Source of the DNA: Methanomassiliicoccaceae archaeon
GTDB taxonomy: Archaea > Thermoplasmatota > Thermoplasmata > Methanomassiliicoccales > UBA472
Length of the DNA stretch: 64,000 bases
Direction: 5' to 3'
Assembly (NCBI GenBank): GCA_963827135.1
Contig: CAWGZX010000004.1
Span: 69,521-133,520 of the forward strand
Shown in pieces: positions 4,973-45,643 of the stretch (its first letter is position 1; each line of letters begins with the position of its first letter). A model generated the notes under the pieces. That model saw only the letters and a list, made by a program, of their open reading frames with translations. It made no database searches and was not told where the DNA came from. Position numbers and translations under genes: made by a program.

Positions 4973-6166
4973 TTAGATGATCCGTAGCTCCTTGCCCACC
5001 TTCTCGAAGGCGGAGATGGCGAAGTCCAGGTCGGACCGGGCCATGGCCGCGTTCATGATGGTGCGGATGCGCGCCTTGCCCTTGGCTACCATGGGGAAGA
5101 CGATGGGCAGGGCGAAGACCCTCTCCTCGAAGAGGCGCTGCGAGAGCTGCTTGGCCTTGCCGCTGTCGCCCACCATGACGGGGACGATCGGCGTCTGGCT
5201 CTTGCCGGTGTCGAAGCCGAGCTGCTGCATGGAACTCTTGAAGTAGCTAGTATGATCCCAGAGCGCCCTCACGTGCTGGGGCTCAGTCTCGAGCACCTCT
5301 ATGGCCGCGATGCAGGCAGCGGCCACGGCCGGAGGGTGCGAGCCCGAGAGCAACCAGGTCCGCGAGCGGTTGTAAGCGAAGTTGACCAGGTCCTTCGAGC
5401 CCGATATATGGCCTCCCACCACCCCGAAGGCCTTGGAGAACGTGCCCATCTCCACATGCACCCTATCTCGTGGCAGCTGGAAGTGCTCGACTATCCCCCT
5501 TCCTCCTTCACCGAGCACGCCCTCGCCGTGGGCGTCGTCGACGTAGAGCATAGCCCCATGTTCATGTGCCAGCCTAGCGATGTCCGGGAGGGGGGCGATG
5601 TCGCCGTCCATGGAGAAGACCCCATCGGTTATGATGAGGATGCGCCTAGGGATCGGGTCCCTCCTCTCTGACTCGACCAGTACCTTTTCCAGGTCCGCGG
5701 CGTCGCAATGCTTGTATATCGCCCGGTCCGCCACCGAGAGCCTGACCCCGTCGATGATCGACCCGTGGTTGAGCTCGTCGCTGATGATCAGGTCCCCCTT
5801 CCCAACCAGTTGAGGTATCAGCCCGGCGTTGGCGGCGAACCCCGTCTGGTAGACCAATGAGGCCTCGGCGTTCTTGAAATGGGCGAGCCGCCTCTCCAGT
5901 TCCATGTGCAGGTCCATGGTCCCGGCGATCGGCCTCACCGAGCCCGAACCGGCGCCATGGGTCCTTACGGCCTCGATGGCCGCCTCCTTCAGGCGAGGAT
6001 GGTTGCTCAGCCCGAGGTAGTTGTTGGAGCAGAACATCAGGACCTCGCGGCCGTCGACCTCGCACCAGGGCGAGCTCGGCCCCTGCAGCACCCTCAGCTT
6101 CCAATCCAGCTCGTCCTTGACCAGGGCGTCGTACTCCTCCTTAAGAAATGCGGTCGGGTCTCTCAT
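4973..6166 (-). CDS. kbl: Glycine C-acetyltransferase (2-amino-3-ketobutyrate CoA ligase), class II PLP aminotransferase
   Basis: CSNNYLGL, SDELNHGSIIDG, TDGVFSMDGD, DDAHG, GTFSKAFG; 4 bp downstream of tdh. Confidence 0.88.
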   Translation of the reverse strand: MRDPTAFLKEEYDALVKDELDWKLRVLQGPSSPWCEVDGREVLMFCSNNYLGLSNHPRLKEAAIEAVRTHGAGSGSVRPIAGTMDLHMELERRLAHFKNAEASLVYQTGFAANAGLIPQLVGKGDLIISDELNHGSIIDGVRLSVADRAIYKHCDAADLEKVLVESERRDPIPRRILIITDGVFSMDGDIAPLPDIARLAHEHGAMLYVDDAHGEGVLGEGGRGIVEHFQLPRDRVHVEMGTFSKAFGVVGGHISGSKDLVNFAYNRSRTWLLSGSHPPAVAAACIAAIEVLETEPQHVRALWDHTSYFKSSMQQLGFDTGKSQTPIVPVMVGDSGKAKQLSQRLFEERVFALPIVFPMVAKGKARIRTIMNAAMARSDLDFAISAFEKVGKELRII

Positions 6167-6170
6167 CGGG

Positions 6171-7133
6171 TCATCTCCTCAATCTCGGCGTCAAGGCCTT
6201 AACCATGTCCTTGACCATCATGGGCAGGTCGTACTTCGGGTCCCAGCCCCAGTCCCTCCTCGCCTCGGAGTCGTCCAGGCTCATGGGCCAGGAGTCGGCT
6301 ATCTTCTGCCTGTGATCTGGCACGTAGCTGACCTGCAGCTCGGGGACGTAGCGTTGCAGCTCTTGCGTCAGCTCCTCCGGGGTGAAGCTCATCGCAGTGA
6401 CATTGTAGGCGTCGCGCCTCTTCACCCTGTCGGCAGGTGCGACCATGATGTCGATGGCACAGCTCAGGCAGTCGGGCATGTACATCATCGGAAGCCTGGT
6501 GTCCTGGCGCAGGAAGCAGGTGTAGCGGCCCTTGGTCAAGGCCTCGTAGAAGATCTCCACGGCGAAATCGGTGGTGCCCCCGCCGGGATGTGTCTCGCTG
6601 CTGATGATGCCAGGATAACGGACGGACCTGACATCGATCCCATATTTACTGTAATAGTAGTTGCAGAGCAGCTCGCCGGAGAGCTTGGAGACGCCGTACA
6701 TGCTGGTGGGGAGCATGACCGTGTCCTGTGGCGTGCCTTGGCGAGGGGAGGTGGGCCCGAACACCGCGATGGAGCTGGGCCAGAAGATCTTCTCCAGATG
6801 CAGCTTGCGTCCCGCCTCAAGGATGTTGACGAGCGAGTCCATGTTCGTCCGCCATGCCATCTGAGGGTCCTTCTCCCCGGTAGCGGAGAGGACGGCGGCC
6901 AAGTGGTAGACCTGAGTCACTTCGTGGTACTTCAGCAGCTCGGTAAGCGAAGCCTCGGACGACAGGTCGACCTTCTCGACGGGACCGGAATCCAATATCT
7001 GCTCGCTGGGAGGCCGGTTGTGTATCCCGGCCACGACAACGTCCCCCCCATATCTCTGCCTCAAGGCCATGGTCAGCTCCGAACCGATCTGGCCCGTTGC
7101 GCCGGTAACTAGGATGCGAGAAGTCGTGTCCAT
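6171..7133 (-). CDS. tdh: SDR-type L-threonine 3-dehydrogenase
   Basis: TGATGQIG, YGVSK, PGGGTTDFAVEIF, LPMMYMPD and SWP motifs of the cTDH SDR family; adjacent to kbl. Start MDTTS (7133). Confidence 0.87.
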   Translation of the reverse strand: MDTTSRILVTGATGQIGSELTMALRQRYGGDVVVAGIHNRPPSEQILDSGPVEKVDLSSEASLTELLKYHEVTQVYHLAAVLSATGEKDPQMAWRTNMDSLVNILEAGRKLHLEKIFWPSSIAVFGPTSPRQGTPQDTVMLPTSMYGVSKLSGELLCNYYYSKYGIDVRSVRYPGIISSETHPGGGTTDFAVEIFYEALTKGRYTCFLRQDTRLPMMYMPDCLSCAIDIMVAPADRVKRRDAYNVTAMSFTPEELTQELQRYVPELQVSYVPDHRQKIADSWPMSLDDSEARRDWGWDPKYDLPMMVKDMVKALTPRLRR

Positions 7134-7215
7134 GCTCTGCCCATTGCCGTGAATCCTTGGGAAAGGATATATGGATTGCCTTTGACAATGTAGCAGGGAA
7201 CGCGGAGGTCTTAGG

Positions 7216-7569
7216 GTGAGGATCGAGGCCAACTATGGGTGGGCGGAGATCGATGGAAGGAGGTACGATGGGGACTTGGTCGTACACGCCGACGGGACCG
7301 TCACGCCGAGGGAGGCATCGCTCTCCATACCTTATCGGAAGGAGCTCTTCCACACCCCCCTGTCCGAAAAGGAGCTAGGATTCCTGGAGGAGGAGGCGCC
7401 GGAGGTGGTGATCATCGCCGCCGGGCACAAGGGGATGCTCACCATCACCCCCAAGGCCAAAGAGATCCTAGAGCGATACGAGTGCAAGGTGGCCATGGCC
7501 CCTGAGGCCGCGAGATTGGCCAGCAGCGAGCGAAGGCGCTTCGTCGCCATCCTCCATCTGACCTGCTGA
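7216..7569 (+). CDS. Mth938-like (DUF498) protein
   Basis: YGWAEIDG..Y..DLVV, PEVVIIAAG and terminal ILHLTC pattern. Confidence 0.85.
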   Translation: MRIEANYGWAEIDGRRYDGDLVVHADGTVTPREASLSIPYRKELFHTPLSEKELGFLEEEAPEVVIIAAGHKGMLTITPKAKEILERYECKVAMAPEAARLASSERRRFVAILHLTC

Positions 7570-7585: not shown

Positions 7586-8336
7586 ATGGACCACGACGCC
7601 AAGAAGACGCCCCCGAACCAGCTGGAGAGGCAACGCGACTGGCTGATCGAGCATTGGAGATATTTGCTAGAGCAGAGCGCGCTAAAAGAGTATGTTCCGC
7701 ATCGACCGCGGGCCTTGGACGTGGGCTGCGGCCCGGGCCTGGTGATGGAATCCCTCGAGGACATCATGGACGTGCAGGGGATCGACAATGACCCGTCCAT
7801 GGTGCAGGCTTGTCAGGACAGGCACCTCCCCGCCACCGTGGCCGAGGCTGAGCGACTACCTTACCAAGAGGGCTCATTCGACATCGTCTATTGCTCCTTC
7901 CTATTGCTGTGGGTGAGGGACCCCAAACGGGTACTGGACGAGATGTTCCGCGTGTCGAGGACATGGGTCGTTTGCCTGGCCGAGCCCGACTATGCCGCCA
8001 GGGTCGACCACCCCCCGGAGCTCGAGGAACTCACATCGCTGATCGTGGCGGGTACCAAGCGGTCAGGAGGGGACCCTTGTATGGGGCGCAAGCTCCGCTC
8101 CCTCCACGCAGGTCGTGGGCAGGTCGAGATAGGCACATATCCAGGGACGTGGAGCTTGGAGAGGCTAAGGGCCGAGAGCGCCTCTGAATGGCGATGGGCC
8201 GAGGAGATGGTGGGGAAGGGGGAGGAGACCGCAGCGCATGGCCCGGCTGAGATCGATCTGGGACCAGGCGCTTGAGGAGGGCACCCTCTATCAGTATAAT
8301 CCCATCTTCTACGCCTTGGCCAGGAAGACTAGGTGA
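7586..8336 (+). CDS. Class I SAM-dependent methyltransferase, apparent frameshift near 8230
   Basis: ALDVGCGPG, LPYQEGSFDIV, EPDY motifs. A protein-like C-terminus (RMARLRSIWDQALEEGTLYQYNPIFYALARKTR*) continues in another frame to TGA 8336. Confidence 0.78.
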
Positions 8337-9683
8337 TTAGACCGACCTACTCTCCAGGCAGAAGTAGTCGCCGTGCTCGCGGGCCAGGGGGCAGCCTCCG
8401 CCGCACACGTCCTTCAGGCCGCATTCCTGGCATTCGCCGTCGAGGAAAACCCTATCCCTGATGTCCTTGCACAGCTGATGGTTCCATATGTCCTGCCAGT
8501 CGTCCTTCAGAATGTTGCCTAGCGGCTTGTAGTAGCTCTGGCATGGAAGGACGCCGCCGTCCGGCTCGACCGCCATGCTGAGCGAGCAGGCGGTGCATTG
8601 CTTGATGCCCAATCCGAGGTTCACCGGGTTGAGCTCACAGTAGGGGGTGGGGGTGTACCAGGTGAGCTTGGTGTCGGTCTCCGCCGCCATCCGCTTGAGA
8701 TTGGTCAGTAGCGGACCGAGCTCCTCGCAGCTCACCGCCTCTGCCTCCTTCCCTTTCCCGGACCGGATGATACCATTGAAAGCGACGTTCTTGACGCCCA
8801 TAGACACCAGAAAGGAGAACGTCCTCTCGATCTGGTCGTAGTTGGAGCGCATGATGGTGGTGTTCGTGCTCACGTACAGGTCCTCGGACAAGGCTAACTT
8901 GAGCCCTTGGACGGTCTGTCTCCAGGCGCCCTGGTCGCCCACCAAGGAGTCGTGCACCCTCTCCTGATCCGAGAGGACGGTGATCTGCACGTGGTCCAGG
9001 CCCTTCTGGACCAAGCCCTTCAGATAGCCGGGCTCACGGAGCCTCCTACCGTTGGTCACCAGTCCAGTGATCTGGCCCAGTCGCTCGGATTCCATAACCA
9101 GCTCGTCCAAGCCGGGGTAGAGGGTGGGCTCGCCCCCAGTGAAGACCACGTGCGGGACCCCTAAGCTCCAAAGCCTGGTGATGACCGCCTTCCACTGCTC
9201 GGGCCCGAGCTCCTTGACCTCCCTCGGTTCGTTGTAGCAGTGGGCGCAGCGGTTCTGGCACTTGTATGTTAGGATGAGGTCCATGCGGTAGGGGGCCGGG
9301 AGCTGGTCCAAGCCGTAGGTGGGGCGCTCGGAGCCGATGCTGCTGATGACCTCGACGTCCCCATGCACGAAAAGGTCGAGCTTCTGCTTGATGGCCGCGT
9401 AGTCGGAGGCGGCTTTATCCTTGTCCAAGTTGCGGTAGCGTCTCATCATGTACTTGGCCATCGCATCCACGGACCTCGCCTCCAGGGCGCAGCGCGCATA
9501 GTCCAGCGCAGTCCCGTTGAGGAAGAGGATGCCTGAGGCATCGACCAGGAGGACGCCGTTGAGGGACGAGTCCACGCGCAGATGGAAGCGATGGTGCCCC
9601 CATTCGCCCTTACCGTCGTAGCGATATACGCCTTGGGGCAGTCCCTCGCCCTTTACCTCGCGCCACCAATCTTGGACCTTCAT
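8337..9683 (-). CDS. Radical SAM/SPASM protein (PqqE-like) with N-terminal PqqD/RRE-like extension
   Basis: CQNRCAHC, FTGGEP, SPASM CTAC..VEPDGGVLPC..CQECGLKDVCGGGC; start MKVQD (ATG 9683) overlaps the upstream stop. Confidence 0.92.
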   Translation of the reverse strand: MKVQDWWREVKGEGLPQGVYRYDGKGEWGHHRFHLRVDSSLNGVLLVDASGILFLNGTALDYARCALEARSVDAMAKYMMRRYRNLDKDKAASDYAAIKQKLDLFVHGDVEVISSIGSERPTYGLDQLPAPYRMDLILTYKCQNRCAHCYNEPREVKELGPEQWKAVITRLWSLGVPHVVFTGGEPTLYPGLDELVMESERLGQITGLVTNGRRLREPGYLKGLVQKGLDHVQITVLSDQERVHDSLVGDQGAWRQTVQGLKLALSEDLYVSTNTTIMRSNYDQIERTFSFLVSMGVKNVAFNGIIRSGKGKEAEAVSCEELGPLLTNLKRMAAETDTKLTWYTPTPYCELNPVNLGLGIKQCTACSLSMAVEPDGGVLPCQSYYKPLGNILKDDWQDIWNHQLCKDIRDRVFLDGECQECGLKDVCGGGCPLAREHGDYFCLESRSV

Positions 9684-11350
9684 CTCCCTCCCCCCGCGCA
9701 GGCGCATGCGCAAGCACAGGCGCATGCGCATCCATGTCCACCTACCGATGAGCCGGCCTTGCTCGCTGGTGCAGGGTTGGTCACCGGGGCGATCTCCCTG
9801 GTCAGCCCTCTGATGTCCTTGACCACGTTGTTGCTGGCGTTGCGCAGCCTCGAGACGTAGTCGCCAGCGATGTTGCCTCTTGTGGCATCGGCCGTTCCCG
9901 CCGTCCTGCCGACTGTAGGCCCCGTGGATGTCCTCGGAAGCGGGAGGATGACGATATCCCTCATCATCCTGTCCTCGTACCGACGATCGAGCATCATCCA
10001 GTCGTTCTTTTCCGCGAGGGACTTGGCGAAGTCCTCGGGGGTCCCCGCCGCCTTGACCTCCTGCCAGGCCTTCTCGCATATCCTATCATAATAAGTCTTG
10101 GTGGCCTCGACGTCGAATCCCGCCATTTTGGCTCGGACCGACCCGATGAGCTCGACGAGCGTCGCCTTGAGGTCGCCACGATTTACCTGTCCGTCCTTGA
10201 TGGAATGCAGGTACATCGTCTCGTATTCGCGCTCGCCCTTGTCAGCCTTCTTGATAAGGCGCATGGGGAATTCCTCGGATACGACCTGGACCAACCCTTT
10301 CTTCGTCAGCCCGAAGAGTATCATCGTCGCCACCACCTCCAACGGCCGCTCTAGGACTACGGCGGCCTCCACCGCCGTCAGGTCCCTTCGTGGACCTGCG
10401 CCGACCACGTCGAGCTTGGGCTCGAAGTAATCCTTCGCGTCCCGCCTTGCCCTTCGCAGCGAGAGAACGATGGTGGTCACGAAGAATGCCCCGAACAGGA
10501 AGGGTATGAGCAGGCCCGAGAGGGTGCACACGTCCCCAATTATGTCGATCGGAGGCTCGTCGGATCCAGGCTCGAAGAACACGTCCACATAGCCCTTGGG
10601 GAATCCCGCCCCGAAGTCCACTGCGCCGCTGGACACCGATTCCGACGAGACGGTGTTGTATTGCCACGAGGCCACGACCATTCCTGAGCTGTTGTCAACC
10701 TCGATAGAGTGCCATGGGAACCCCTCCAACCATACGGCCTGCGAGGTGTTATCGAACCCTTGAGGGAAGTAGAAGTTCTCCTCCAACGTACCGATGTTCC
10801 CGATCTGGAACTGGGTGCTGAACCAGGTCGGCCTGAACCTCACTCCGACGGTGTCGGGTACCAAAGTGTTGTTGTAGACCATGTGCGGGTTGTTCACCTT
10901 GAAGCCCAGCTCGAACGTGCCCTCGCTCTGGATCATACCGATCGTGGTTTGATCGAACTCTACCGCGATGCCGGGGGTGACATAGGGCGAGTCATGAATC
11001 TGGGATGGCTGTCTGATCTCACCGCTGACCAAGATCCAGGCCTGGGCAGAAGCCAGGTTATAAAAATTGTTCGGCATCCCAATATCGACGCCGTCCAGAT
11101 AACCGACGTTCGTGAAATGGAAGTAGTACTCGATGTCCACGCTCCCATCCCTTAAGGCTGTCACGTTCACCTTCTGTTCCGCCAGGGAGAAGGTGTAGTC
11201 CTGAGCCGTGGAGGTCGTTGCCAGCCCTCCGAAAGGCTGGAAGAGCATTATCGCCGCGAGAAGGGCGAACGCGAAAAGAACGAGTGCCGAAGTCACGGAC
11301 CTTCTGCGTTTTGCCAATGGATCACCACTTAGGAGCCTCTTCCAAGGCAT
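9680..11350 (-). CDS. DUF2207-like membrane protein with C-terminal (Cys-Ala)6-GGGR tail
   Basis: N-terminal signal/TM, extracellular beta-rich domain, TM at about aa 280-300, DLTAVEAAVVLE..ATMILFGLTKKG helical domain, tail GGHGCACACACACACAGGGR. Confidence 0.85.
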   Translation of the reverse strand: MPWKRLLSGDPLAKRRRSVTSALVLFAFALLAAIMLFQPFGGLATTSTAQDYTFSLAEQKVNVTALRDGSVDIEYYFHFTNVGYLDGVDIGMPNNFYNLASAQAWILVSGEIRQPSQIHDSPYVTPGIAVEFDQTTIGMIQSEGTFELGFKVNNPHMVYNNTLVPDTVGVRFRPTWFSTQFQIGNIGTLEENFYFPQGFDNTSQAVWLEGFPWHSIEVDNSSGMVVASWQYNTVSSESVSSGAVDFGAGFPKGYVDVFFEPGSDEPPIDIIGDVCTLSGLLIPFLFGAFFVTTIVLSLRRARRDAKDYFEPKLDVVGAGPRRDLTAVEAAVVLERPLEVVATMILFGLTKKGLVQVVSEEFPMRLIKKADKGEREYETMYLHSIKDGQVNRGDLKATLVELIGSVRAKMAGFDVEATKTYYDRICEKAWQEVKAAGTPEDFAKSLAEKNDWMMLDRRYEDRMMRDIVILPLPRTSTGPTVGRTAGTADATRGNIAGDYVSRLRNASNNVVKDIRGLTREIAPVTNPAPASKAGSSVGGHGCACACACACACAGGGR

Positions 11351-11690
11351 ATTTCATGCCGCAATAGGGGCAGGAGACCATGATGCCTCCAGAGATGACC
11401 TTGAGGTCCTTGTCGGACAGAGGCGCGCCGCAGGATTTGCATACCAGCTGCTTCTGCTCTAACTGCCCCGATCCCTCCATCTTCACATTGAAGGTCTGGT
11501 TTATCAGCTTTGGTTGCGAAGCCCTCACCTTCTCACTTTGCCAGCTGAAATAGATAAGGAAGATGGCGATCAGGACCATCACCCCTCCAGCCACAAGATT
11601 CTCGGTCCCTCCGGCGATGATGAAGATAGCGCCGAGTAGCAATAGGAAGACGGCCACGAATATCAGCACAGCAGAGACTATCCGGCTCAT
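11322..11690 (-). CDS. Small 2-TM protein with C-terminal zinc ribbon
   Basis: Two hydrophobic helices then CKSCGAPL..CPYCG; 29-nt overlap with the next gene. Confidence 0.85.
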   Translation of the reverse strand: MSRIVSAVLIFVAVFLLLLGAIFIIAGGTENLVAGGVMVLIAIFLIYFSWQSEKVRASQPKLINQTFNVKMEGSGQLEQKQLVCKSCGAPLSDKDLKVISGGIMVSCPYCGMKYALEEAPKW

Positions 11691-14683: not shown

Positions 14684-17091
14684 ATGCAGGATTTCGAGAA
14701 GCTCGGCGTATTCTATCTGGGCCGTAACTTTGACTTGGCAAGCAAACGATGCAGGACGACCTGCTCCTCTACGATTCCAAGGACCTGGTGACGCACGCGG
14801 TCTGCGTGGGCATGACCGGGAGCGGCAAGACCGGGCTCTGCATCTCCCTTCTGGAGGAGGCGGCGCTCGACGGCGTACCCTCCATCATCATCGATCCCAA
14901 GGGGGACATGGCCAACCTGCTTCTGACGTTCCCCGAGCTGCGCAAGGAGGACTTCTGCCCTGGGTCAACCCAGAGGACGCCAGAAGAAGGGCCTCACGCC
15001 CGAAGATTATGCGGCCAAGCAGGCTGAGACCTGGAAGAACGGCCTGGCCAGATGGGGGGAGGACGGCGCCCGCATCCAACGGTTGCGCGATGCCTGCGAT
15101 TTCACCATCTACACGCCGGGCAGCAACGCCGGTACCCCGGTGTCCATCCTCAAGTCCTTCTCCGCCCCTCCCGCCGAGATCATCGGCGACGAGGAGCTGC
15201 TGCAGGAACGCGTCAACACCACCGTCACCAGCCTTCTCGGGCTGATGGGCATCGAGGCGACCCCATCCGGTCCCGGGAGCACATCCTGATCTCCACAATA
15301 TCTCCGAGGCCTGGACGTAAGGGTGCCAACCTCGACCTGGCCGGCCTCATCCAGCAGATCCAGACCCCCCCCGTCAAGCAGATCGGCGTGCTGGAGCTGG
15401 AGTCATTCTACCCTTCCAAGAACCGCTTCGAGCTGGCCATGCAGATCAACAACCTACTCGCCGCCCCGGGATTCCGGCTCTGGCTGGAGGGCGAGCCGCT
15501 GGACGTGAAGTCGCTTCCTGTACACCCCCGATGGCAAGCCCAGGGTCTCCATCTTCTCCATCGCCCACCTCAGCGACCATGAGCGGATGTTCTTCGTTTC
15601 GCTCCTGCTGAACCATGTGGTGGGTTGGATGCGCACCCAATCCGGCACGACCAGCCTGCGCGCGATTCTCTACATCGACGAGGTCTTCGGCTACTTGCCG
15701 CCGGTGGCAAACCCGCCCTCCAAGCTGCCTCTTCTGACACTGATGAAGCAGGCCCGCGCCTTCGGCGTCGGGGTGAGTGCTGGTCACCCAGAACCCGGTG
15801 GACCTGGACTACAAGAGGCTGTCGAACACGGGCACCTGGTTCATCGGACGGCTGCAGACCGACCGGGACAAGATCCGCGTCCTGGACGCGTTGGAGGGCG
15901 CATCAGTAGGTACAGGGAAGCAGATTCGAACGCAGTCAGATGGACCAGATCATCGCCGGACTAGGCAACCGGGTGTTCCTCATGCACAATGTGCACGATG
16001 ACGCCCCGACGGTGTTCACAGACCAGATGGGCGATGTCTTACCTCGCGGACCGCTGACGAGGGAGCAGATAAAAACCCTAATAGGTCCGACCAAATCGCG
16101 ATCTCAGGCCGTACGCCCTCCCACAACGCATATCTCCATCCCTCAGACTGGGCAGGATTCAGGAAGCGTGGCAGCGGCGATCCAAAGGCCGATATTGCCG
16201 ACCGAGATCCCACAATATTTCCTACCTTCATCCAGTGGAACCTCGGCAACCTTGGTCTACAAGCCTATGTTGCTGGGCGTTTCCCAGGTACGTTTCTCCG
16301 ACACGAAGAGGAAGGTGGATGATACGAAAGAGCTCTACTTCCTCGCCCCCTTTATCGATGGTCCGGTCCCGATGAATTGGGAAAACGCAGAACCGGCCGA
16401 TCTCAATATGCCCGATCTAGCGAGCACGCCATTGGATTCAGCCAAGTACGCAGACCTTCCGTCCGCGGCAACCATGTCCAAGAACTATGGAACCTGGAGA
16501 AAGGAATTCGCCAACTGGTTATCGAGAAGCCAAAGGATCGATCTATTCATGAGCCCGGGCCTTGGTCAGGTGTCCAAGGTCGGGGAAAAGGAGAGCGACT
16601 TCAGGATACGCATGCAACTCGCCGCCAGGGAACAATCGGACCTGAACGTAGAAAAGCTCAGGAAGAAGTACGCACCAAAATACGCTGCTCTCGACGAGCG
16701 TATCCGAAAGGCGAAGGTGGCGATCGAGAAAGAGAGGGAGCAGGCAAGGAGCCAGAAATATCAGACGGCGATGTCCCTTGGTTCGTCCATCCTCGGTGCC
16801 ATGGTTGGCAGGAAAGTAAGCAGCAGCGCCACAAGAACCGTACGCAACTATGGGAAGGCCGCTAAGGAGAAGAAGGACGTCGAGTACGCTGGAGAGAACC
16901 TCGAATCCCTACAAGAGCAGAAGAAGAGGTTGGAGGAGGAGTTCCAGCAGGAGCTAAAGGCCATGGGAGAGAAGATGGACCCTTTGACCGAGAAGCTAGT
17001 AACCATCTCGATAATGCCCAAGAAGACGGACATCTCCGTGAAGCTGGTGGCACTGGTCTGGAGCCCATCGATCTCAAAAGGGAAGGCCTAG
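14684..17091 (+). pseudogene. HerA/FtsK-like ATPase (DUF87 family, about 800 aa), about 10 frameshifts in the 5' half (decay or assembly error)
   Basis: MQDFEKLGVFYLG, Walker [16 protein letters not shown], Walker [16 protein letters not shown] and [10 protein letters not shown] are spread over three frames; 16050-17091 is intact. Confidence 0.8.
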
Positions 17092-36950: not shown

Positions 36951-37028
36951 GGGCCCATAGCTTAGCCTGGTTGGAGCGCCCGGCTGATAACCGGGAGGTC
37001 AAGAGTCCAAATCTCTTTGGGCCCACCA
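36951..37028 (+). tRNA. tRNA-Ile(GAT), CCA encoded; integration target
   Basis: Acceptor GGGCCCA/TGGGCCC, anticodon arm CCCGG-CTGATAA-CCGGG, T arm AAGAG-TCCAAAT-CTCTT. Confidence 0.95.
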
Positions 37029-37039
37029 TTTCATCTGGC
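37005..37039 (+). repeat. attL (35 bp: tRNA-Ile 3' end plus 11 nt)
   Basis: GTCCAAATCTCTTTGGGCCCACCATTTCATCTGGC, identical to 45601..45635. Confidence 0.95.
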
Positions 37040-38132
37040 ATCGGTCCGAAAATGCCCCGACTGTGCAGAGTCCTGCACAACCGAGGCGACAAATCGGTCC
37101 TGAGCCTTCATAGGGTCTTCCTGGTCGGACAGGTTGAGACCGAGATACTTCTTCGTCATGTCGATGGACTCATGCCCCAACATCTCGGAGATCGTCTCTA
37201 TAGGCGTTCTAGCTGCCATTGACGCCTCCCAAACGTCCTCCTCATGCGTATGGTTCTAGAAGTCGAACGTCCTGGCGAATGCGTTCTCCATTCGATTCTT
37301 GAACCCCTGGACTATCTTATCCGATGCCTGACTCAGAATAGCCTCTCAGCTCTCCATGCCATTCATGGATGAATAAGAGATCGGGAACGGTTTGGCTAGG
37401 ATATTCCTTCTTGAACCGTTCCACCATAAGCTCTCTTTCATACATCCATCTGGCAACAAATTCCTTCACCGTGTCGTTCAGCATCATGGTCCTGATCTTG
37501 CCGCCATTCCGGCCTTTCCCTAACACCGTAACGGTCCTGGTCTCCACCTCGGATGCCTTTTGCCTCATGATCTCGATTCTCCGGCATCCCAGACCCAGCT
37601 CCATAGCAAGGATGGCGCCCTCCATTGGATCAGCCATGTTGATGAGGGCGCTCCATACCATCGTCTCCCTCCTCGATCTAGCCAATCGACTGTCGTGCGC
37701 TCGTTTTTCGGCCATTCTAGCTCCATCTTGCTAACAATGGTTTCCATTCGCTTCTAAGAAGCGCTTGAAGAATGAGAGCATCCACATTCGGTTAGTAGGG
37801 TGTCCCACCGTATACCTTGCCTAGAAGATGCCGAATCTCGGTTTCCCCTATTAGCCAGGCATCATGCTGGAGTCCCGCATTCGATAGGTAGTTATGCTCT
37901 TGTTCAGTACCCATTCCGCGCTCTCTATTGTCTTTTTGGACCTTCCCTTAAGGCGCATCCTGTCCACGTATTCCCTAATCGATTCCCTGAGGAGCCTTGC
38001 CTTATCGGGCATTTTAGACTCCTCGGACAAGGATTGCGCGTCCTGGCTAGTAATGGTTACGGAACCGTCCGATTCCGAAGCCCCACGCCTTTTTATTATG
38101 GCTCGACCAATGCGGTGGCGTTTTGAGGACAT
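37031..38132 (-). pseudogene. Tyrosine recombinase/integrase, multiply frameshifted
   Basis: LGCRRIE (R), GKGRNGGK (K), NHT/MRRTFGR (HxxR, across a shift) and LGHESIDMTKKY (H,Y) are spread over frames; one in-frame TAG. Confidence 0.85.
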
Positions 38133-38137
38133 GATAA

Positions 38138-38494
38138 TCAGCCACTTGGGTTTAGACTTCGACCAAGAACCGATTCCTTTGAAGGCGTGCCACCCCTTCC
38201 ATATATGCCGAAGGCGCGTCGAACCTCCGACGCTTCAAGGTCTCCTTCGGCATCCCCTAGGATTTCACTCTCCTCGATGGTCCTCTTGATGCTTCTCCAT
38301 CCAAAATTGAAACCTGCATAAGTGGCAAACCTACCAATTGCAATGAGCAGGAAATAATCACTGACACCGGGATACAATCTCGCCATTTCTGCCCGCAATT
38401 GGCTTAGCGCTTTTCCTTCATTGAGGTTCGTCACGACGAAGTCGTACGCGTCGAGATAGCATTCTGGAGGAAGCTCGCTACGGAAGGGGCTCAT
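38138..38494 (-). CDS. Hypothetical element protein
   Basis: MSPFRSELPPECYLDAYDF..; start overlaps the stop of the upstream ORF; C-terminus may be out of frame. Confidence 0.5.
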   Translation of the reverse strand: MSPFRSELPPECYLDAYDFVVTNLNEGKALSQLRAEMARLYPGVSDYFLLIAIGRFATYAGFNFGWRSIKRTIEESEILGDAEGDLEASEVRRAFGIYGRGGTPSKESVLGRSLNPSG

Positions 38495-38781
38495 GTCACC
38501 ACATCCACTTCGGTGTCCTCGACAATCAACAGGTGCCTTGCAGAGACGCGCTGATAAACGACCCTGGTATTGGCCATCTTCTTCAAGCTTCTCTTGATGC
38601 TCGGGATGCGCTCGATTGTGGTCTTCAAAACAACGGCATACGCGACCTCTGTTTCGGGGGGCGTATTGCCACAAATATCCGTACCTTTCTTTGCATATGA
38701 TTTCCTTTCTGAGGTAGGTGCGAGAACTCTCGTCCTACCGTCAATACTATTTCGCGGCAACGGTGCTGGCATAAAAAGCAA
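38491..38781 (-). CDS. Hypothetical element protein (start uncertain)
   Basis: Open frame ending in an ATGA/TGAC-type junction with the 38494 ORF. Confidence 0.4.
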   Translation of the reverse strand: MLFMPAPLPRNSIDGRTRVLAPTSERKSYAKKGTDICGNTPPETEVAYAVVLKTTIERIPSIKRSLKKMANTRVVYQRVSARHLLIVEDTEVDVVT

Positions 38782-39141
38782 TCCTACGCGCGCGAATTCC
38801 CGTGTTCGCGTACGCGTGAGGGTTCTACGATTCCTCGTTCGAGCCGTGCAATCCTCAAAAGACGAGGCACTATAAACACCCTTAAATCGTGCAGGAAACG
38901 GCTCTTCACGGCGTTCTGCTTCGAATTCCGATGTAGGCTATTAACAGGTCAAAATTCGTTGTCCTGAACGGAGATTTTTCCCTCCGTCAACCACCCTCAT
39001 CTCTTCTCCCCTTGCCTAGGGGCCCTTGCCCCATCCCCACATCTCTACGATAAGATGAGTGCTGGTGGGGATAAAGGTTGAATGTTATTGGGTGTAATAG
39101 TACAATCCAGAGTTCTCCAATTACGCATACTGTCATTACTA

Positions 39142-39375
39142 ACTAGCAAGCCCCTGAAAGGGGCTTCAAGGTTGTATAAGGGCCCGCATATTGCACATTT
39201 AGAACTGTACATATAGCCGAAGGCTTGGTCCCAGACTTCGCCTTCGGTTCATTTAGGAGGATAAGTGGGGATGATGGTTGGTAGGTGATGGTTAATGGTG
39301 TGATATTACTCCATATTAATCCTCATTAACGCATAGTATTGCATTCACTCACTAGCAAGCCCCTCTTTAGGGGCT
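39142..39375. repeat. Two copies of ACTAGCA + AGCCCCT-loop-AGGGGCT hairpin, 209 bp apart
   Basis: 39142 ACTAGCAAGCCCCTGAAAGGGGCT; 39351 ACTAGCAAGCCCCTCTTTAGGGGCT. Confidence 0.85.
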
Positions 39376-39529
39376 GTATATACATACTATACGCAATACG
39401 CAAGCATGCGGGGCCCTTGCAGACTTGCGATATGTAAGGATGTAAGGTTGCGTATTAGGGGGGTTGTGAGGTACTGTGAGCCCTGTACACACCCTACTCT
39501 AACACACATCAAATTCACAATTATATATG

Positions 39530-41360
39530 TTAATGATTGAAATAATGTTGGCTTACGTGCAATAGGAGAATAAGAATATAGGGCGGTCCATAATCCAGCG
39601 CCTCCTCCCAATGATGTTGGTCGTATGCAATATCCATACACTTGTTGAATAGTTCCTTGGTCCGAAGGAAGTCGTATCTTTCCGCATAAATCATCTGCTG
39701 GTACTTATCCTCGTCTACGATTTCAGCTAATATCGGCCAAATTTTTGTGGTCCCCATCCTCGTAAGATGGTTGACGAAGTCTCCTTCCCATTCAATTCCC
39801 TTACCGTATTTCTCACACAAAGACAATATTCTCTTTCATCGTTAAAGAGCCCTTGAATCAATAAGGCCCAGATGAGATTTCTCCCCCTTCAGCAGGAAAT
39901 AGTACTTGTTCTGTCCCTTGTTTTGGATTGCATATGTCACACTACCAGCTTTCCTTTGGCATTTGTAGGCTCAAGGATTTTTCTCGCGTCTGCCGTTAGA
40001 TATTCTTCTCTGAACGTTTCCTTGTATAGCTTATCACTATCGAAGACATCGGTGAGTCTCGACATCTTGTCGAGCTCGCCCTCACAAGCCAAGAACGTCT
40101 GAGCGAGGATGCGTATCTGAATGGCTTTGTCTTGTCCATACCCCATGTCTTCTAGTTCTTCAATTATTGTAAGGTTGCTGAATGCTCTCTCTTGTCTCTC
40201 GTAAAAGACGCCTGGAGGCAGTTCTTCCCTGAACTTGTCCTGCAGCTCGAGTTGAATCCTATCGTTTGCTCTTAAGTTCCATCGTTGAACCGGGTTCTGT
40301 CTGTTATTACATATGGTCACATTGACCAGGAAATCCTTGGACTCAGACTTAATGACCTTAGCCAGGACGTATATCGATTCCATTCTTTCTTTTTCGGTTT
40401 CGAGCCGGGGGTCCCCTGCCCTATCCCTCGGGAACTTCTCCAGACTAGTCACCGTCTGTGCGCCATTTAGGACGCGCGGCTCCGTGAGAATCGCTCTTCC
40501 ATCAATAAATTCTATATTCTCAGCCGAAAGGGTCACACCATTGTGATTGAAGATGAACTCATCTGGGGGCGATTTGCCTTCGAGTATATCCTTGAGGGCG
40601 GTTCGGAGATGCTTGTTCGCGGGACGGTCGGGGGACAATCCCATCCTTATATTCCTCTCGAAGAACCTTGGTCCAATCGCTCAGAACATCTGTTTAGTTC
40701 CATTAGTGGTATTTTTACCACATGCATCTCAGCATTGCTCTCAGTTTTCGTCTTGACACACTCATCAAGAATCGGAACTTGGTGGCGAGAACGTGGTCTT
40801 GCAGTCCAGGAGGGCGTTCCTCCTTCTCATGTTGCTGGATATGAAACTGAAAGCCAATCCAATATCACACCAGATACTTGTCAAGGATGAATTTCTTCGA
40901 TTGCAGGTCCTCTACATAGCTCTCGAGGACAGCACTCTCTCCAGCCTTAAGTGGGTCACCTCTGAATACGAAATGAACCAGTACCTTGTCTATGAGTGCC
41001 GAGTTTTCACTTAGGTGTGCACGGAGATTAGAAATGAGGGGGTTCTTCTTCGGGTCTTGGAGTGGGTTACCGAATACCTGTTCTAAACCAGACTGAATCA
41101 ATTGCACGAATGAATCCTTGAAGAGATTGTAGTTGTCTGAAAACTTGAATTGGTATAGATATAGTACCCTCTTCGCAGTATCAATATGGTATGCGTCAAT
41201 TCCGTAATCATGGGACCCGAATGTAACCTGGTCTATGACCTACTTCGATTTCCTTACCAAACTCCTGAGCCAAATAAAGGGCAGCATAGTAGTCTTCCTT
41301 TAAGCCCCCATAGGAAGGTTGATATTGACGAAAGGTTGCATTTAAGTCCGCTCCTCCAAT
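39530..41360 (-). pseudogene. AIPR family protein (abortive infection phage resistance), fragmented
   Basis: HDYGIDAYHID..LYLYQFK N-terminal motif; FIFNHNGVTL, VLNGAQT and NNRQNPV core; pieces in several frames. Confidence 0.8.
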
Positions 41361-41463
41361 ATTCAGATGAAACCACCGAGACTATAACTTCATAGTAACC
41401 AAAAGATTTTGCTAATGTTTTTGTGCTTAAAACTTCCTTGAAACCTCGGATGAGAGAGATTAT

Positions 41464-42384
41464 GTGGATATATTGGAACTAAAAAGCTCCACCATAATAA
41501 CCTCATGTAAAGTTGTCTGGACCTTAAAAAAATATATAACGTCGTTCGGATTGATGATTGAATGGGGCGCACTCTTGCTACATGAATCATACTTACCGTT
41601 CGAGGAATCGGAGTTGGCAAGTCATTTCCTCGGGTTCAAAGGGGACGAAGCAAGCGCGGATTTGTATACGAAGTTCTATAGGAACCTCGTCCAGAAGTAT
41701 CCTGAACAGGTCGCGATAAGTGAGAGGTTCTGGGTTGCGTCTTCGCTCATGAGATTGTTCCACGATGGAAAGCATTGCACGAGAACTTCGCAAGATTGAT
41801 GGGTGGGGCGTTCGGCAAGGCGGATAAATTCGGGTTTGATGATTGGATAAGGGCCATCGGAGAAGGGCCAAAATTGTTCTTCGAGGCCACAGTCCATCTC
41901 CTCCTTCGAGTATAGCGAACGGTCATACAACCTCCTGAATGAGGGCAACCTCATACCACAATTTTAGGAGGCATTCCCGAATAAAGGCAAGATTGAAGGG
42001 AAAACGTGGCTGGATGCAATCCTCATCAATCCCGACAATGGTTTCGCTTTGGTATTCGAAGCCAAGGTCTTCGCCGACATCGACACTTGCGTTAAGCACG
42101 ATTGTTTGCGCAATCAGTTGGCCCGCATAATCGATTGCCTCATTGACTCGAATCCAAAGCATCATTCACCCCTGAACAAGAGGCGGCCGGAAAGGACGTT
42201 CTTTGTGCTATTGACACCAGAGATGTTCAAGCCAAAGGGACCTCAAAGCCCAAGAACCAAGCTGTACGCCTATAAATTCATAGATTATAGGACCGACCCA
42301 AATTCCATTGGCAGAGACCTTCCACATAGGCACAATTGTGATTGGCCATCGATTTCAGATAGACTGAGTTGGGGGACAACGTAG
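41464..42384 (+). pseudogene. Putative PD-(D/E)xK nuclease-fold protein, interrupted
   Basis: IEGKTWLDAILINPDNGFALVFEAK..RNQLARIID; internal stops and shifts. Confidence 0.55.
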
Positions 42385-42653
42385 GATTTAAACAGAATTG
42401 ACCCGCGTTGCTGTCCATGGTTAAGTCGCTAAATAATCAGGCGTTCATCTTTGCCACAGCCATCCTGGGAACCGAGATACAAATCGAATCATCCTTCCTT
42501 GTGGCCCCCGGGTAGGAAGTTTGGTCAGGTTCTTCTCAAAAATTTATATACTGAGTACTCTTATTAATGTCTGGTATTCAATAATATCTATGATTCGGTA
42601 ATGAAGCGCATCATCTCCTTTACCATGGAAGTGCCCTCCCCGTCCTATCATAA

Positions 42654-43388
42654 CTATGGTTTCTTCAATGGTTTTTTTCCAATTGACAGTAGCTTTTCGT
42701 TTAGCTTTTCTCTCCTTTCTAGGGACTTCTTAGGTTGGACATAATAGGAATCGAACAATGATTCCAGCACATCTAAGAGGAATTTAGCCTCTTCAGTTTA
42801 GACCTCAACGATTTCCCCAGTATTGATTACCTTTTTTCGGGTGGGCTGCGAAATTGCCTACCTGTCTAATTGCGTCTAGGTTTTCAGCAATATGGCCAGG
42901 GAGGCCTGGAAGTGCCCTATCTATGCTTTTATCCAGGTCAGATGCCGCATAGCCTTGTTCTTCAAGTACCATCTGAAGGGTTCTTCGAGATAATGCAGCA
43001 CTAGCTTTCTGACTAATTTCGAACACTTCAACGGCTTCGATGAAATCTTGCTTAATCTTTAAAGGAACTTCGGTGACACAAATCTTGTTGCGCATCTTGG
43101 AAATATTAGAGGTTCGATTGAGCGCTCTGATACTTGCGTGGTTCCATAATTATCCAATACGGTAATTTTGCATGCAATTATCGGTAAATTGCAATTCGGG
43201 CAGGTTGATGAGTAAACATAAGCACTTTTACACCATTCCCCGCGAGCCTCAAAATGGTCTAGACGACCAAACCCTCTAATGGCAACCCCCTCCCACGGTA
43301 TTTCCGTTTGAATGAATTGAACCATAACCCCGCAATGGGGGCATATCCCCTTTTCTCCTTGATTATATTTTAATGAATCCGTAGTCAT
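42654..43388 (-). pseudogene. DUF4145 (HEPN-like) protein with N-terminal zinc ribbon, frameshifted
   Basis: CPHCG..CPNC; ASAALSRRTLQ, IRQVGNFAAHP; tail EEAKFLLDVLESLF..KLNEKL in other frames to TAG 42654. Confidence 0.8.
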
Positions 43389-44106: not shown

Positions 44107-44167
44107 GAAACTATTAGGGGAATCGGTCATAGACCAACGCAGTCTTGATGAACGACCAGTAGAACTG

Positions 44168-45635: not shown

Positions 45636-45643
45636 TCGACCCG

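What the first reader, a model, noticed from the sequence alone, without database searches (positions are those of the whole stretch)
8337..11690. Radical SAM/SPASM enzyme coupled to a membrane protein with a (Cys-Ala)6-GGGR tail: candidate RiPP-like modification of a membrane protein
Seen: three overlapping genes (29-nt and ATGA overlaps): a 2-TM zinc-ribbon protein, a 556-aa DUF2207-like membrane protein ending GGHG-CACACACACACA-GGGR, and a SPASM rSAM. The tail uses mixed codons (TGC GCA/TGC GCC/TGT GCT/TGC GCA/TGC GCC/TGC GCG), so the repeat looks selected at protein level. By TM order it should be cytoplasmic. Known: PqqE/SPASM enzymes form thioether or C-C crosslinks on Cys-rich peptides. 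Inference: the rSAM crosslinks or metallates the tail of a full-length membrane protein rather than a short precursor; no separate precursor gene is visible nearby. Alternative: the tail is a metal/Fe-S site that regulates or recruits the enzyme. I know of no characterised system with this layout.
Basis: partly seen in the sequence, partly recalled or inferred. Interest (0 to 1): 0.9.

Follow-up and report, generated by a model that had tools for sequence, protein, structure and literature searches.

The report
Radical-SAM cassette for a Cys-Ala protein tail
A Methanomassiliicoccales archaeon carries a four-gene module, shared with distant anaerobic bacteria, in which a peptide-modifying radical-SAM enzyme and a methyltransferase always accompany a membrane protein ending in an invariant Cys-Ala repeat; this points to an undescribed chemical modification made on a whole membrane protein.

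Summary
On the minus strand lie three genes:
- a 122-aa protein with two transmembrane helices and a zinc ribbon (S);
- a 556-aa membrane protein (M) ending GGHG-(CA)6-GGGR;
- a 448-aa RRE/radical-SAM/SPASM enzyme (R), joined to M by an ATGA overlap.

The last ten residues, CACACAGGGR, are invariant in 53 homologues from archaea and bacteria. Every synonymous codon is used at those positions.

In 151 genomes of the same order, S, M, R and MT occur in the same roughly 52 genomes. R lies directly after M in 52 of 54 matches. Of 76 tail-bearing loci from about eight phyla, 69 have R next door. The seven exceptions keep R elsewhere in the genome.

R folds like SkfB, SuiB and CteB, including an N-terminal peptide-recognition domain. 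By topology the tail is cytoplasmic. The tail motif occurs once in the genome, and no small precursor gene exists.

Best reading: R docks on M's C-terminal region and modifies the Cys-Ala tail, most probably with thioether crosslinks, and MT then methylates it. No chemistry has been shown. The main rival is a metal or Fe-S binding tail. I found no paper describing this system. The nearest precedents are CrpC/CrpA, QhpD/QhpC and StsB/StsA.

The parts
11322..11690 (-). S: 122-aa protein with two transmembrane helices and a cytoplasmic 4-Cys zinc ribbon, ending ...CPYC...E.PKW
   Evidence: ORF. Weak zinc-ribbon Pfam hits. Alignment of 79 relatives shows invariant C..C, CPYC and terminal PKW. Present in 52 of 151 genomes of the order, the same genomes as M and always directly upstream of it. 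Precedes M in nearly all bacterial loci.
9680..11350 (-). M: 556-aa bitopic membrane protein (alternative TTG start at 11317) and candidate substrate
   Evidence: AlphaFold model with pLDDT 84. Only 8 Cys in the protein, 6 of them in the tail.
10598..11191 (-). M residues 54-251: extracellular beta-sandwich, like ribophorin I/Ost1 and the N-domain of M1 aminopeptidases
   Evidence: pLDDT above 95. Foldseek PDB top hits are 8b6l_O, 8pn9_E, 6s7o_E and 6ezn_A, followed by IRAP and ERAP N-domains.
10430..10543 (-). M residues 270-307: second transmembrane helix, followed by RRARRDAK on the cytoplasmic side
   Evidence: Acidic stretch before the helix and basic stretch after it, which fits the positive-inside rule.
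9953..10405 (-). M residues 316-466: conserved cytoplasmic helical/winged-helix-like domain (GAGPRRDLTAVEAA...)
   Evidence: pLDDT above 90. No PDB sequence relative. A tail-less paralogue of this domain sits next to unlinked R copies in two Chloroflexota genomes.
9770..9880 (-). M residues 491-527: two helices plus the near-invariant T-N-P motif, the candidate docking ('leader-like') segment for the RRE
   Evidence: A495, T524 and P526 are near-invariant between archaea and bacteria. The docking role is inferred.
9683..9730 (-). M residues 541-556: the (Cys-Ala)6-GGGR tail
   Evidence: The last 10 residues are invariant, with only synonymous changes. Disordered in the model. 101 of 143 representative relatives end (CA)n[G(CA)n]GGG[RK] and about 18 have a CxC variant.
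8337..9683 (-). R: 448-aa RRE / radical-SAM / SPASM enzyme
   Evidence: Pfam Radical_SAM and SPASM. All NCBIfam equivalogs fall far below their cut-offs, the best being PqqE at 114 bits against a cut-off of 381. AlphaFold pTM 0.86. Foldseek top hits SkfB, SuiB and CteB align over the full length.
9366..9683 (-). R residues 1-106: PqqD-like RiPP recognition element (four strands then three helices)
   Evidence: Secondary structure. PqqD scores 15.4 bits (E 0.023) on the window protein. It scores 24.2 bits, above the cut-off, on the aligned bacterial orthologue. Invariant R32 H34 L35 R36 G43 L45 A49 N56.
9237..9260 (-). R C142-x3-C146-x2-C149: ligands of the radical-SAM [4Fe-4S] cluster
   Evidence: Invariant in 31 sequences. 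Positions.
8358..8639 (-). R residues 349-442: SPASM domain with C349, C363-x12-G-x4-C381, C418-x2-C421-x5-C427-x3-C431 and C442
7586..8275 (+). MT: 229-aa class-I SAM methyltransferase, convergent with R across a 61-nt spacer
   Evidence: Pfam Methyltransf_11 and Methyltransf_25. Its clade is present in 53 of 151 genomes of the order; of the 52 rSAM-positive genomes all are in this set, which adds only G087. It lies about 100-150 nt beyond R. It is co-directional in Anaerolineae operons.

Best explanation
S, M, R and MT form one co-inherited module that matures the cytoplasmic C-terminus of the membrane protein M.

M sits in the membrane with a ribophorin-I-like beta-sandwich outside. Inside it has a helical domain, a flexible Gly/Ser linker and the (Cys-Ala)n-GGGR tail.

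R is an RRE/radical-SAM/SPASM enzyme whose translation is coupled to M. I infer that R docks through its PqqD-like domain on the conserved helix and T-N-P segment, or on the cytoplasmic domain, upstream of the tail. It then uses 5'-deoxyadenosyl radical chemistry on the tail itself. The most likely product is a set of thioether crosslinks (sactionine or ranthionine type) from the Cys sulfurs to Ala or Gly carbons. That would turn the disordered tail into a rigid sulfur-bridged ladder that stays attached to the protein.

MT would then add one or more methyl groups, for example on remaining thiols or on the C-terminus. S, with two membrane helices and a cytoplasmic zinc ribbon, would be the membrane partner of M.

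In Anaerolineae a catalytically dead, RRE-bearing paralogue (R2) is added, probably as a substrate-holding chaperone.

Shown here: the gene anatomy, the conservation, the co-inheritance, the folds and the topology. Inferred: docking, the type of chemistry, the target of methylation, and the biological role of the modified tail.
For: 1. Selection on the peptide. CACACAGGGR is invariant across 53 homologues with 39% mean column identity. The tail scores 0.98 for the frequency of the commonest residue, against 0.52-0.59 for the folded domains. Synonymous sites are saturated with no replacement. The Ala and Gly residues are as invariant as the Cys. That is expected for an enzyme substrate or crosslink acceptor, not for a simple CxC metal site.

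2. Co-inheritance in the own order (151 genomes). M is in 54 genomes, the R clade in 52, S in 52 and MT in 53, essentially the same genomes. 52 of 54 R matches lie directly downstream of M on the same strand. All mismatches sit at contig edges.

3. Coupling across phyla. 69 of 76 evaluable tail-bearing loci have R next door. These come from Methanomassiliicoccales, other Thermoplasmatota, Anaerolineae/Chloroflexota, a deltaproteobacterium, Zixibacteria, Cloacimonadota and others. Flanking genes differ between genomes. All 7 exceptions keep an R orthologue (351-438 bits in six of them, 238 bits in one) elsewhere in the genome, twice paired with MT.

4. R is a peptide maturase by architecture. 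It has the CxxxCxxC motif, a full SPASM Cys set and an N-terminal PqqD-like domain. The best structural matches over the full length are the RiPP maturases SkfB, SuiB and CteB, and SkfB is the best PDB sequence hit.

5. Access. The tail is cytoplasmic and disordered.

6. No other substrate in view. There is no small Cys-rich ORF nearby, and the tail motif occurs once in the genome.

7. R2 keeps the RRE but has lost all cluster cysteines. This fits a system built around binding a peptide segment.

8. Precedent. CrpC, a SPASM rSAM of methanogens, puts ranthionine links on a whole protein at motifs such as ACAGM and PCAGD (PMC13692751). StsB links a CxCxC run to Gly alpha-carbons (PMC10288494).

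9. Transcription. A wetland metatranscriptome holds contigs about 95% identical that span the M/R junction.
Against: - No chemistry has been observed, so everything after 'R and M belong together' is inference.
- Alternating CxC runs are classic soft-metal or Fe-S ligands, and a His often precedes the run.
- The PqqD match on the window's own enzyme is below threshold (15.4 bits). The RRE call rests on the model and on aligned orthologues.
- R matches no curated thioether-synthase family. SkfB, StsB, AlbA and PapB score 56-76 bits against cut-offs of 300-850.
- Seven of 76 loci have the tail without an adjacent SPASM enzyme.
- A tail-less paralogue of M's cytoplasmic domain sits beside R in two genomes. 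This equally fits M being only a scaffold for R.
- The RNA evidence comes from assembled contigs of a relative and could include DNA.
Confidence: 0.55

Rival explanations
1. R does modify the tail, but not by thioether formation. Possible alternatives are oxidation of Cys to formylglycine or thioaldehyde, thio-oxazole-type heterocycles, epimerisation or C-C bonds, or inter-chain links that rivet two M molecules together. MT then caps the product.
For: The genomic coupling is the same as for the best explanation. R scores about equally against SPASM families with many different chemistries: PqqE, NirJ2, AhbD, SbtM, anSME-like and MftC. anSME and PqqE are also close structural matches. Archaeal tails are a single CA run. 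Bacterial tails are two runs joined by a G or VS hinge. This would fit a two-stranded unit that archaeal proteins can only form between chains.
Against: The anSME substrate motif C-x-(P/A)-x-R is absent from the tail (sequence). The closest full-length structural relatives with an RRE, SkfB and CteB, are thioether synthases. The invariance of Ala and Gly fits acceptor residues.
Confidence: 0.2
2. The tail is not a substrate. It is a metal or iron-sulfur binding site, or a cluster or metal donor. R, anchored at the membrane by M and S, acts on something else or assembles a cluster on the tail.
For: CxCxC runs bind soft metals and Fe-S clusters (established chemistry). A His frequently precedes the run. 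S adds a 4-Cys zinc ribbon on the same side of the membrane. A tail-less copy of M's cytoplasmic domain accompanies R in two genomes, so that domain rather than the tail may be what R needs. In a few loci the tail protein has no adjacent active rSAM.
Against: A metal site does not explain absolute invariance of every Ala and of GGGR across archaea and bacteria. Even the divergent subfamily keeps Ala at most positions. R and the dead paralogue R2 both carry a peptide-recognition domain. R never occurs without M in 151 genomes of the order. A tested link to mercury methylation failed: the HgcA motif shows no association within the family, with counts of 21, 10, 13 and 3.
Confidence: 0.17
3. The real substrate of R is the small protein S, through its Cys-bearing zinc ribbon or its invariant ...E.PKW end. 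M is only a partner.
For: S is small, Cys-containing, strictly co-inherited and at least as conserved as R. It shows 50-71% identity across the order outside the own genus and 79-91% within the genus.
Against: S looks like an ordinary CxxC...CxxC zinc ribbon behind two membrane helices. In operons it is separated from R by M. The extreme conservation signal lies in M's tail. Earlier notes of this scan describe the tail/rSAM pair in lineages without mentioning an S-like gene (unchecked).
Confidence: 0.05
4. The adjacency has no functional meaning: R is a housekeeping SPASM enzyme that merely happens to sit next to M.
For: R (60-67% identity across the order outside the own genus, 71-85% within the genus) is more conserved than M (about 50-56% outside the genus, 66-76% within it).
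Against: R is present in only 52 of 151 genomes of the order, exactly those with M. The same order of genes is kept between archaea and bacteria with unrelated flanks.
Confidence: 0.02

Closest known systems
CrpC / CrpA of Methanococcus voltae (PMC13692751, 2026; rSAM family TIGR04463)
   Same: An archaeal RRE/radical-SAM/SPASM enzyme that modifies a whole neighbouring protein rather than a short peptide. The modified motifs include ...ACAG... and ...PCAG..., and the product is a thioether (ranthionine).
   Different: CrpA is a soluble protein of about 10% Cys with ten 17-residue repeats and a leader-like N-terminus. Here the substrate candidate is the last 16 residues of a 556-aa membrane protein with only 8 Cys. 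The enzyme belongs to a different, unnamed family (no NCBIfam cut-off reached). The module also has a methyltransferase and a membrane zinc-ribbon protein.
StsB / StsA (and BlaB / BlaA) sactipeptide systems (PMC10288494)
   Same: The core has alternating CxCxC, with glycines as acceptors. The enzyme is a SPASM rSAM working with an RRE. The residue after CxxxCxxC (Tyr) and the FTGGE Thr match StsB Y113 and T147.
   Different: StsA is a short, secreted-type precursor with a separate RRE protein. StsB scores only 72 bits against a cut-off of 625. The positions after the SPASM Cys (Q382, S383) differ from StsB K338 and L339.
SkfB, CteB (SCIFF) and SuiB: structurally solved RRE-rSAM-SPASM/twitch RiPP maturases
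   Same: These are the best full-length structural matches (6efn, 5why, 5v1q), and SkfB is the best PDB sequence match. The three-domain order is the same.
   Different: Sequence identity is 14-21%. Their substrates are peptides of 40-60 aa with N-terminal leaders. No membrane-protein substrate is known for them.
QhpD / QhpC of quinohemoprotein amine dehydrogenase
   Same: A SPASM rSAM that makes intra-protein Cys thioether bonds in a subunit that remains part of a functional protein.
   Different: QhpC is a small soluble periplasmic subunit, and its acceptors are Asp and Glu. It has no Cys-Ala repeat, no methyltransferase and no membrane anchoring.
DUF2207 (PF09972) membrane proteins and ribophorin I / Ost1
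   Same: The layout is shared: an extracytoplasmic beta-sandwich, a membrane helix, a cytoplasmic part and a Gly-rich C-terminus. The fold of the ectodomain matches ribophorin I/Ost1.
   Different: M has no significant Pfam match. The cytoplasmic domain and the CA tail are specific to this family.

Membership tests
RRE-fused radical-SAM/SPASM peptide maturases (sacti-/ranthi-synthase type) | CxxxCxxC motif binding the radical-SAM [4Fe-4S] cluster | tested here: met
   C142, C146 and C149 are invariant in 31 sequences. Pfam Radical_SAM scores 83 bits.
RRE-fused radical-SAM/SPASM peptide maturases (sacti-/ranthi-synthase type) | C-terminal SPASM domain with the Cx9-15Gx4C ... Cx2Cx5Cx3C ... C motif | tested here: met
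   C363-x12-G376-x4-C381, C418/C421/C427/C431, C442, plus upstream C349. Pfam SPASM scores 37 bits against a cut-off of 21.5. The last Cys is not conserved in many bacterial orthologues.
RRE-fused radical-SAM/SPASM peptide maturases (sacti-/ranthi-synthase type) | N-terminal PqqD-like RiPP recognition element | tested here: met
   The model shows four strands and three helices in residues 18-106. Full-length Foldseek alignments to SkfB, SuiB and CteB. PqqD is above cut-off in the aligned bacterial orthologue (24.2 bits) and in R2 (28.3 bits), but only 15.4 bits on the window protein.
RRE-fused radical-SAM/SPASM peptide maturases (sacti-/ranthi-synthase type) | Adjacent gene encodes a Cys-bearing substrate | tested here: met
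   The tail is encoded immediately upstream, in 52 of 54 matches and in 69 of 76 loci. The substrate is atypical, being the end of a 556-aa membrane protein.
RRE-fused radical-SAM/SPASM peptide maturases (sacti-/ranthi-synthase type) | Enzyme forms S-C (thioether) bonds on that substrate | not testable with these tools
   This needs mass spectrometry of the co-expressed tail.
Named NCBIfam equivalogs (PqqE, SkfB, StsB, AlbA, PapB, MftC, NirJ, AhbD and others) | Score at or above the curated cut-off | tested here: not met
   The best is PqqE at 114.5 bits against 381. SkfB scores 76 against 300, StsB 72 against 625, AlbA 72 against 850 and PapB 56 against 340.
CrpC family (TIGR04463) | Match to the family model | tested here: not met
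   It is not among the 25 best NCBIfam matches, whose E-values run from 5e-33 to 7e-15 (55-114.5 bits); no family listed reaches its cut-off.
Anaerobic sulfatase-maturing enzymes (anSME) | Substrate motif (C/S)-x-(P/A)-x-R | tested here: not met
   The tail ...CACACAGGGR has no Cys with P/A at +2 and R at +4 (sequence). anSME is only a mid-ranking structural match without an RRE.
DUF2207 (PF09972) | Significant match to the Pfam model | tested here: not met
   No hit for M at E up to 0.1. Two of 53 homologues hit at E about 0.01. There is only fold-level likeness to ribophorin I.

The most novel reading that the evidence does not exclude
This would be a previously undescribed post-translational modification, shared by archaea and bacteria. 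A dedicated RRE/radical-SAM/SPASM enzyme and a methyltransferase would convert the invariant cytoplasmic (Cys-Ala)n-GGGR end of an integral membrane protein into a defined sulfur-bridged and methylated structure that stays on the protein. It would act as a built-in prosthetic group or a covalent clasp. In archaea, where the tail is a single run, the link might form between two chains. In bacteria it might form a hairpin. The result would be a RiPP-type product whose 'leader' is a 540-residue membrane protein.
Probability: 0.4. Interest if true: 0.88.

Novelty: new variant of a known kind. Interest (0 to 1): 0.78.

Why it matters
Radical-SAM/SPASM maturases are known almost only as makers of small secreted peptides. 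Proven cases on whole proteins are very few (QhpC, sulfatases, and CrpA in 2026).

Here the candidate substrate is the tail of a membrane protein. The tail is more strongly conserved than any folded part of that protein, from methanogen relatives to Chloroflexota. The whole module of four genes is gained or lost as a unit.

If the enzyme does act on the tail, this defines three things:
- a new enzyme family with a simple, synthesisable 16-25-residue substrate;
- a new kind of protein-borne sulfur structure;
- a new functional class of membrane proteins in anaerobes of wetlands, sediments and digesters.

It is directly testable with standard co-expression and mass spectrometry.

Tried and rejected
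1. Family assignment of M. Pfam and NCBIfam give nothing. A profile of the cytoplasmic half against PDB sequences gives nothing.
2. Separate precursor gene. Every short ORF with 3 or more Cys between 7000 and 12600 lies inside or antisense to the genes.
3. Further substrates. The DNA pattern for CACACAGGG occurs once in the 1.99-Mb genome.
4. Link to mercury methylation. I tested this because HgcB also ends in Cys and the carrier lineages overlap. The HgcA cap-helix motif is in 52 of 151 genomes and overlaps M overall (38 both, 16 M only, 14 HgcA only, 83 neither). Within the window's own family the counts are 21, 10, 13 and 3, so there is no association. The overall signal reflects free-living versus host-associated lineages. 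Rejected.
5. Literature. Searches for the tail string, 'Cys-Ala repeat', ACGX and DUF2207 found no description. The 'cacacacaggg' hits are DNA primers.
6. anSME-type chemistry. The substrate motif is absent.
7. The idea that GGGR is kept only because its codons form R's ribosome-binding site. This holds in this genome (GGGGGAGGGAG before the ATG). It is rejected as the cause, because other loci use all Gly codons and have 17-100-nt spacers.
8. Catalytic-site-proximity typing against StsB and CteB. It could be done only by motif, since no residue-level structural alignment is available. The result was mixed (Y150, T182 and S238 like StsB; Q382 and S383 like neither), so it carries no weight.

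Full report
**What is in the window**

On the minus strand, from 11690 down to 8337, lie three tightly packed genes.
- S (11690..11322, 122 aa) has two hydrophobic helices. These are followed by a basic stretch and a CxxC...CPYC zinc ribbon.
- M (11350..9680, 556 aa) ends ...TNPAPASKAGSSVGGHG-CACACACACACA-GGGR.
- R (9683..8337, 448 aa) starts at an ATG that overlaps M's TGA as ATGA. It matches Pfam Radical_SAM (83 bits) and SPASM (37 bits).

M has only eight cysteines, six of them in the tail.

Two details need correction. First, the 29-nt S/M overlap follows from the longest ORF. A TTG at 11317 aligns with the initiator Met of the homologues and has GGTGAT 3 nt upstream, which would give a 4-nt spacer. 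Second, M gives no Pfam or NCBIfam hit at all, so 'DUF2207-like' is a likeness of layout and fold only.

A fourth gene belongs to the set. It is a 229-aa class-I SAM methyltransferase on the plus strand (7586..8275), convergent with R across 61 nt.

**The tail is under strong selection as a peptide**

A database search that did not use the tail returned 78 relatives of M, from Methanomassiliicoccales and from Anaerolineae. All full-length ones, except three with apparently frameshifted ends, finish either (CA)3-6-GGGR in archaea or CACACACA-G-CACACA-GGGR in bacteria.

In an alignment of 53 sequences with 39% mean column identity, the last ten residues, CACACAGGGR, are invariant. The frequency of the commonest residue is 0.98 in the tail, against 0.52-0.59 in the folded domains.

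Across 82 distinct DNA versions, both Cys codons and all four Ala and Gly codons are used, as are at least five Arg codons, with no amino-acid change. Those loci were found partly by a CACACAGG pattern, but the independent set shows the same.

A profile of the cytoplasmic half finds 655 clusters at 50% identity in 1.84 billion representatives. Of the 143 new representatives among the 150 listed:
- 101 end (CA)n[G(CA)n]GGG[RK];
- about 18 carry a variant, CACACACVSCACACA[GS]GG..;
- the rest are fragments or frameshifts.

The number of CA units at the N-terminal side of the run varies. The last three units and GGGR do not.

**The genes travel together**

In 151 genomes of the window's own order:
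- M is found in 54 genomes;
- the R clade (E at most 1e-60, with nothing between that and unrelated SPASM paralogues) in 52;
- S in 52;
- the MT clade in 53.

These are essentially the same genomes, covering 12-13 of 34 genera.

52 of 54 R matches lie directly downstream of M on the same strand, with alignment gaps of -1 to 18 nt. All discordant cases are at contig ends. MT lies about 100-150 nt beyond R on the other strand, and S lies directly before M. So the module is an accessory unit, gained or lost whole.

Outside the order I examined 80 loci from named genomes. They come from Methanomassiliicoccales, other Thermoplasmatota, many Anaerolineae and other Chloroflexota including the cultured Leptolinea sp. 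HRD-7, a deltaproteobacterium, Zixibacteria, Cloacimonadota, Edwardsbacteria and Acidobacteriota. Of the 76 loci with a complete tail and enough downstream sequence:
- 69 have R immediately downstream;
- 4 have only R2;
- 3 have neither.

In all seven exceptions an R orthologue (351-438 bits in six of them, 238 bits in one) is present elsewhere in the genome. Twice it is followed by MT. Twice it is followed by a tail-less, ectodomain-less paralogue of M's cytoplasmic domain. Flanking genes differ from genome to genome.

**What the proteins look like**

The AlphaFold model of M (pLDDT 84) shows these parts:
- an N-terminal membrane helix (residues 11-37);
- a confident beta-sandwich (54-251);
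- a second membrane helix (270-307);
- a confident cytoplasmic helical/winged-helix-like domain (316-466);
- two helices (494-524) ending in a near-invariant T-N-P motif;
- a Gly/Ser linker and a disordered tail.

The basic residues before helix 1 and after helix 2, and the acidic stretch before helix 2, put the C-terminal half in the cytoplasm. The ectodomain resembles ribophorin I/Ost1 and the N-domain of M1 aminopeptidases. The cytoplasmic half has no relative among PDB sequences.

The model of R (pTM 0.86) has three parts:
- an N-terminal strand-strand-strand-strand-helix-helix-helix domain (18-106);
- the radical-SAM barrel with C142/C146/C149;
- a SPASM domain with C349, C363, C381, C418, C421, C427, C431 and C442.

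Its best structural matches, aligned over the whole length, are SkfB, SuiB and CteB. These are the RiPP maturases that carry an RRE. PqqE and anSME, which lack one, follow with shorter alignments.

The Pfam PqqD model is above its cut-off on the aligned bacterial orthologue (24.2 bits) and on R2 (28.3 bits). On the window's enzyme it reaches only 15.4 bits. No curated NCBIfam family comes near its cut-off, so R belongs to an unnamed SPASM family.

R2 is present only in bacterial operons. It is a paralogue that has lost the CxxxCxxC motif and all SPASM cysteines but kept the PqqD domain.

S is a conserved family with two membrane helices, an invariant C..C ... CPYC and an invariant C-terminal E.PKW.

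**How it most likely works**

The evidence above shows that M's tail, R, MT and S form one functional unit. It shows that R is built like a peptide maturase, and that the tail is on R's side of the membrane. It also shows that no other candidate substrate is encoded nearby or elsewhere in the genome.

I therefore infer that R binds the conserved segment upstream of the tail, or the cytoplasmic domain, through its RRE and modifies the tail. Thioether crosslinking is the preferred chemistry for three reasons:
- The nearest structural relatives with an RRE (SkfB, CteB) do this.
- The alanines and glycines are as invariant as the cysteines, as expected if they are acceptors.
- There are close precedents. 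StsB joins a CxCxC run to Gly alpha-carbons (PMC10288494). CrpC crosslinks a whole archaeal protein at ACAG and PCAG motifs (PMC13692751).

MT probably methylates the product, and R2 probably holds the substrate. Both roles are inferred.

No protease or exporter is part of the module, so the product should stay on the protein.

Bacterial tails have two CA runs with a hinge, whereas archaeal tails have one. This suggests, speculatively, a two-stranded unit that archaeal proteins would form between chains.

A wetland metatranscriptome contains contigs about 95% identical that cover the M/R junction. This is weak support for co-transcription in a relative.

**Rivals**

- R modifies the tail by other chemistry (confidence 0.2). 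The family scores do not discriminate between chemistries.
- The tail is a metal or Fe-S site and M is a scaffold (0.17). This is supported by CxC chemistry, a frequent nearby His, and the tail-less paralogue beside R. It is weakened by the invariance of Ala and GGGR and by the peptide-recognition domains.
- S is the substrate (0.05).
- The adjacency is meaningless (0.02). The co-occurrence data contradict this.

A possible tie to mercury methylation was tested and rejected.

**Comparison with what is known, and novelty**

By architecture R is an RRE/radical-SAM/SPASM maturase, and those features were tested and met. It is not a member of any named family, which was tested and not met.

The layout is an invariant Cys-Ala tail on a bitopic membrane protein, a membrane zinc-ribbon partner, a methyltransferase and sometimes a dead paralogue. 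I found no description of it in the paper library.

Earlier notes of this scan describe the same tail/rSAM pairing in other genomes. I treated them as leads. I re-derived the co-occurrence, the RRE and the dead paralogue independently. I also added the strict four-gene co-inheritance in this order and the S family.

I class the finding as a new variant of a known kind: radical-SAM maturation applied to the tail of a membrane protein.

**Verdict**

The chemistry is open and directly testable.

Noticed in passing
window 9683-9735 (minus strand): The Ala-Cys codon pairs GCA TGC create two in-frame ATGs upstream of R's start, inside the tail-coding repeat. Several public gene calls therefore extend the rSAM by about 16 residues (MRLRL...GGRE), giving 462-464 aa relatives, and one M homologue starts with the same frame-shifted string. 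In this genome the GGG GGA GGG AGA codons of GGGR also form R's Shine-Dalgarno sequence.
   Followed up: partly
window 36951-49700: A 12-13-kb island of 44-47% G+C, against about 60% elsewhere, begins at tRNA-Ile(GAT). It holds only short ORFs, nearly all without a Pfam match, and one AIPR (abortive-infection) fragment at 39937-40644. It is probably a foreign or decaying integrated element.
   Followed up: partly
window 49727-51422 (minus strand): An ATP-dependent DNA ligase (LigD-like) and Ku lie side by side at the edge of the low-GC island. This is a two-gene non-homologous end-joining pair in an archaeon.
   Followed up: no
window 14749-17091 (plus strand): A large P-loop ATPase gene (...GMTGSGKTG...) appears split over at least four or five overlapping reading frames. 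It is either a pseudogene or the result of indel errors in the assembly.
   Followed up: no
G000 contig C5:328054-328077 (outside the window): The genome encodes the HgcA cap-helix motif NVWCAAGK, as do 52 of 151 genomes of the order. This is a marker of potential mercury methylation. It is not associated with the Cys-Ala module within the family.
   Followed up: yes
L095:229-1284 and L096:3051-4052 (Chloroflexota genomes G156, G154): These are tail-less, ectodomain-less paralogues of M's cytoplasmic domain (GGGIKRGLT.PEAA..., about 335-350 aa, with N-terminal membrane helices). Each lies directly downstream of an unlinked active R, while the tail-bearing M in the same genome is followed by the dead paralogue R2. 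This hints at a heteromeric complex of M with the paralogue and of R with R2.
   Followed up: partly
window 4973-7232 (minus strand): 2-amino-3-ketobutyrate CoA ligase and an NAD-dependent epimerase/threonine-dehydrogenase-like gene lie next to the module. They are not conserved neighbours in other genomes.
   Followed up: no
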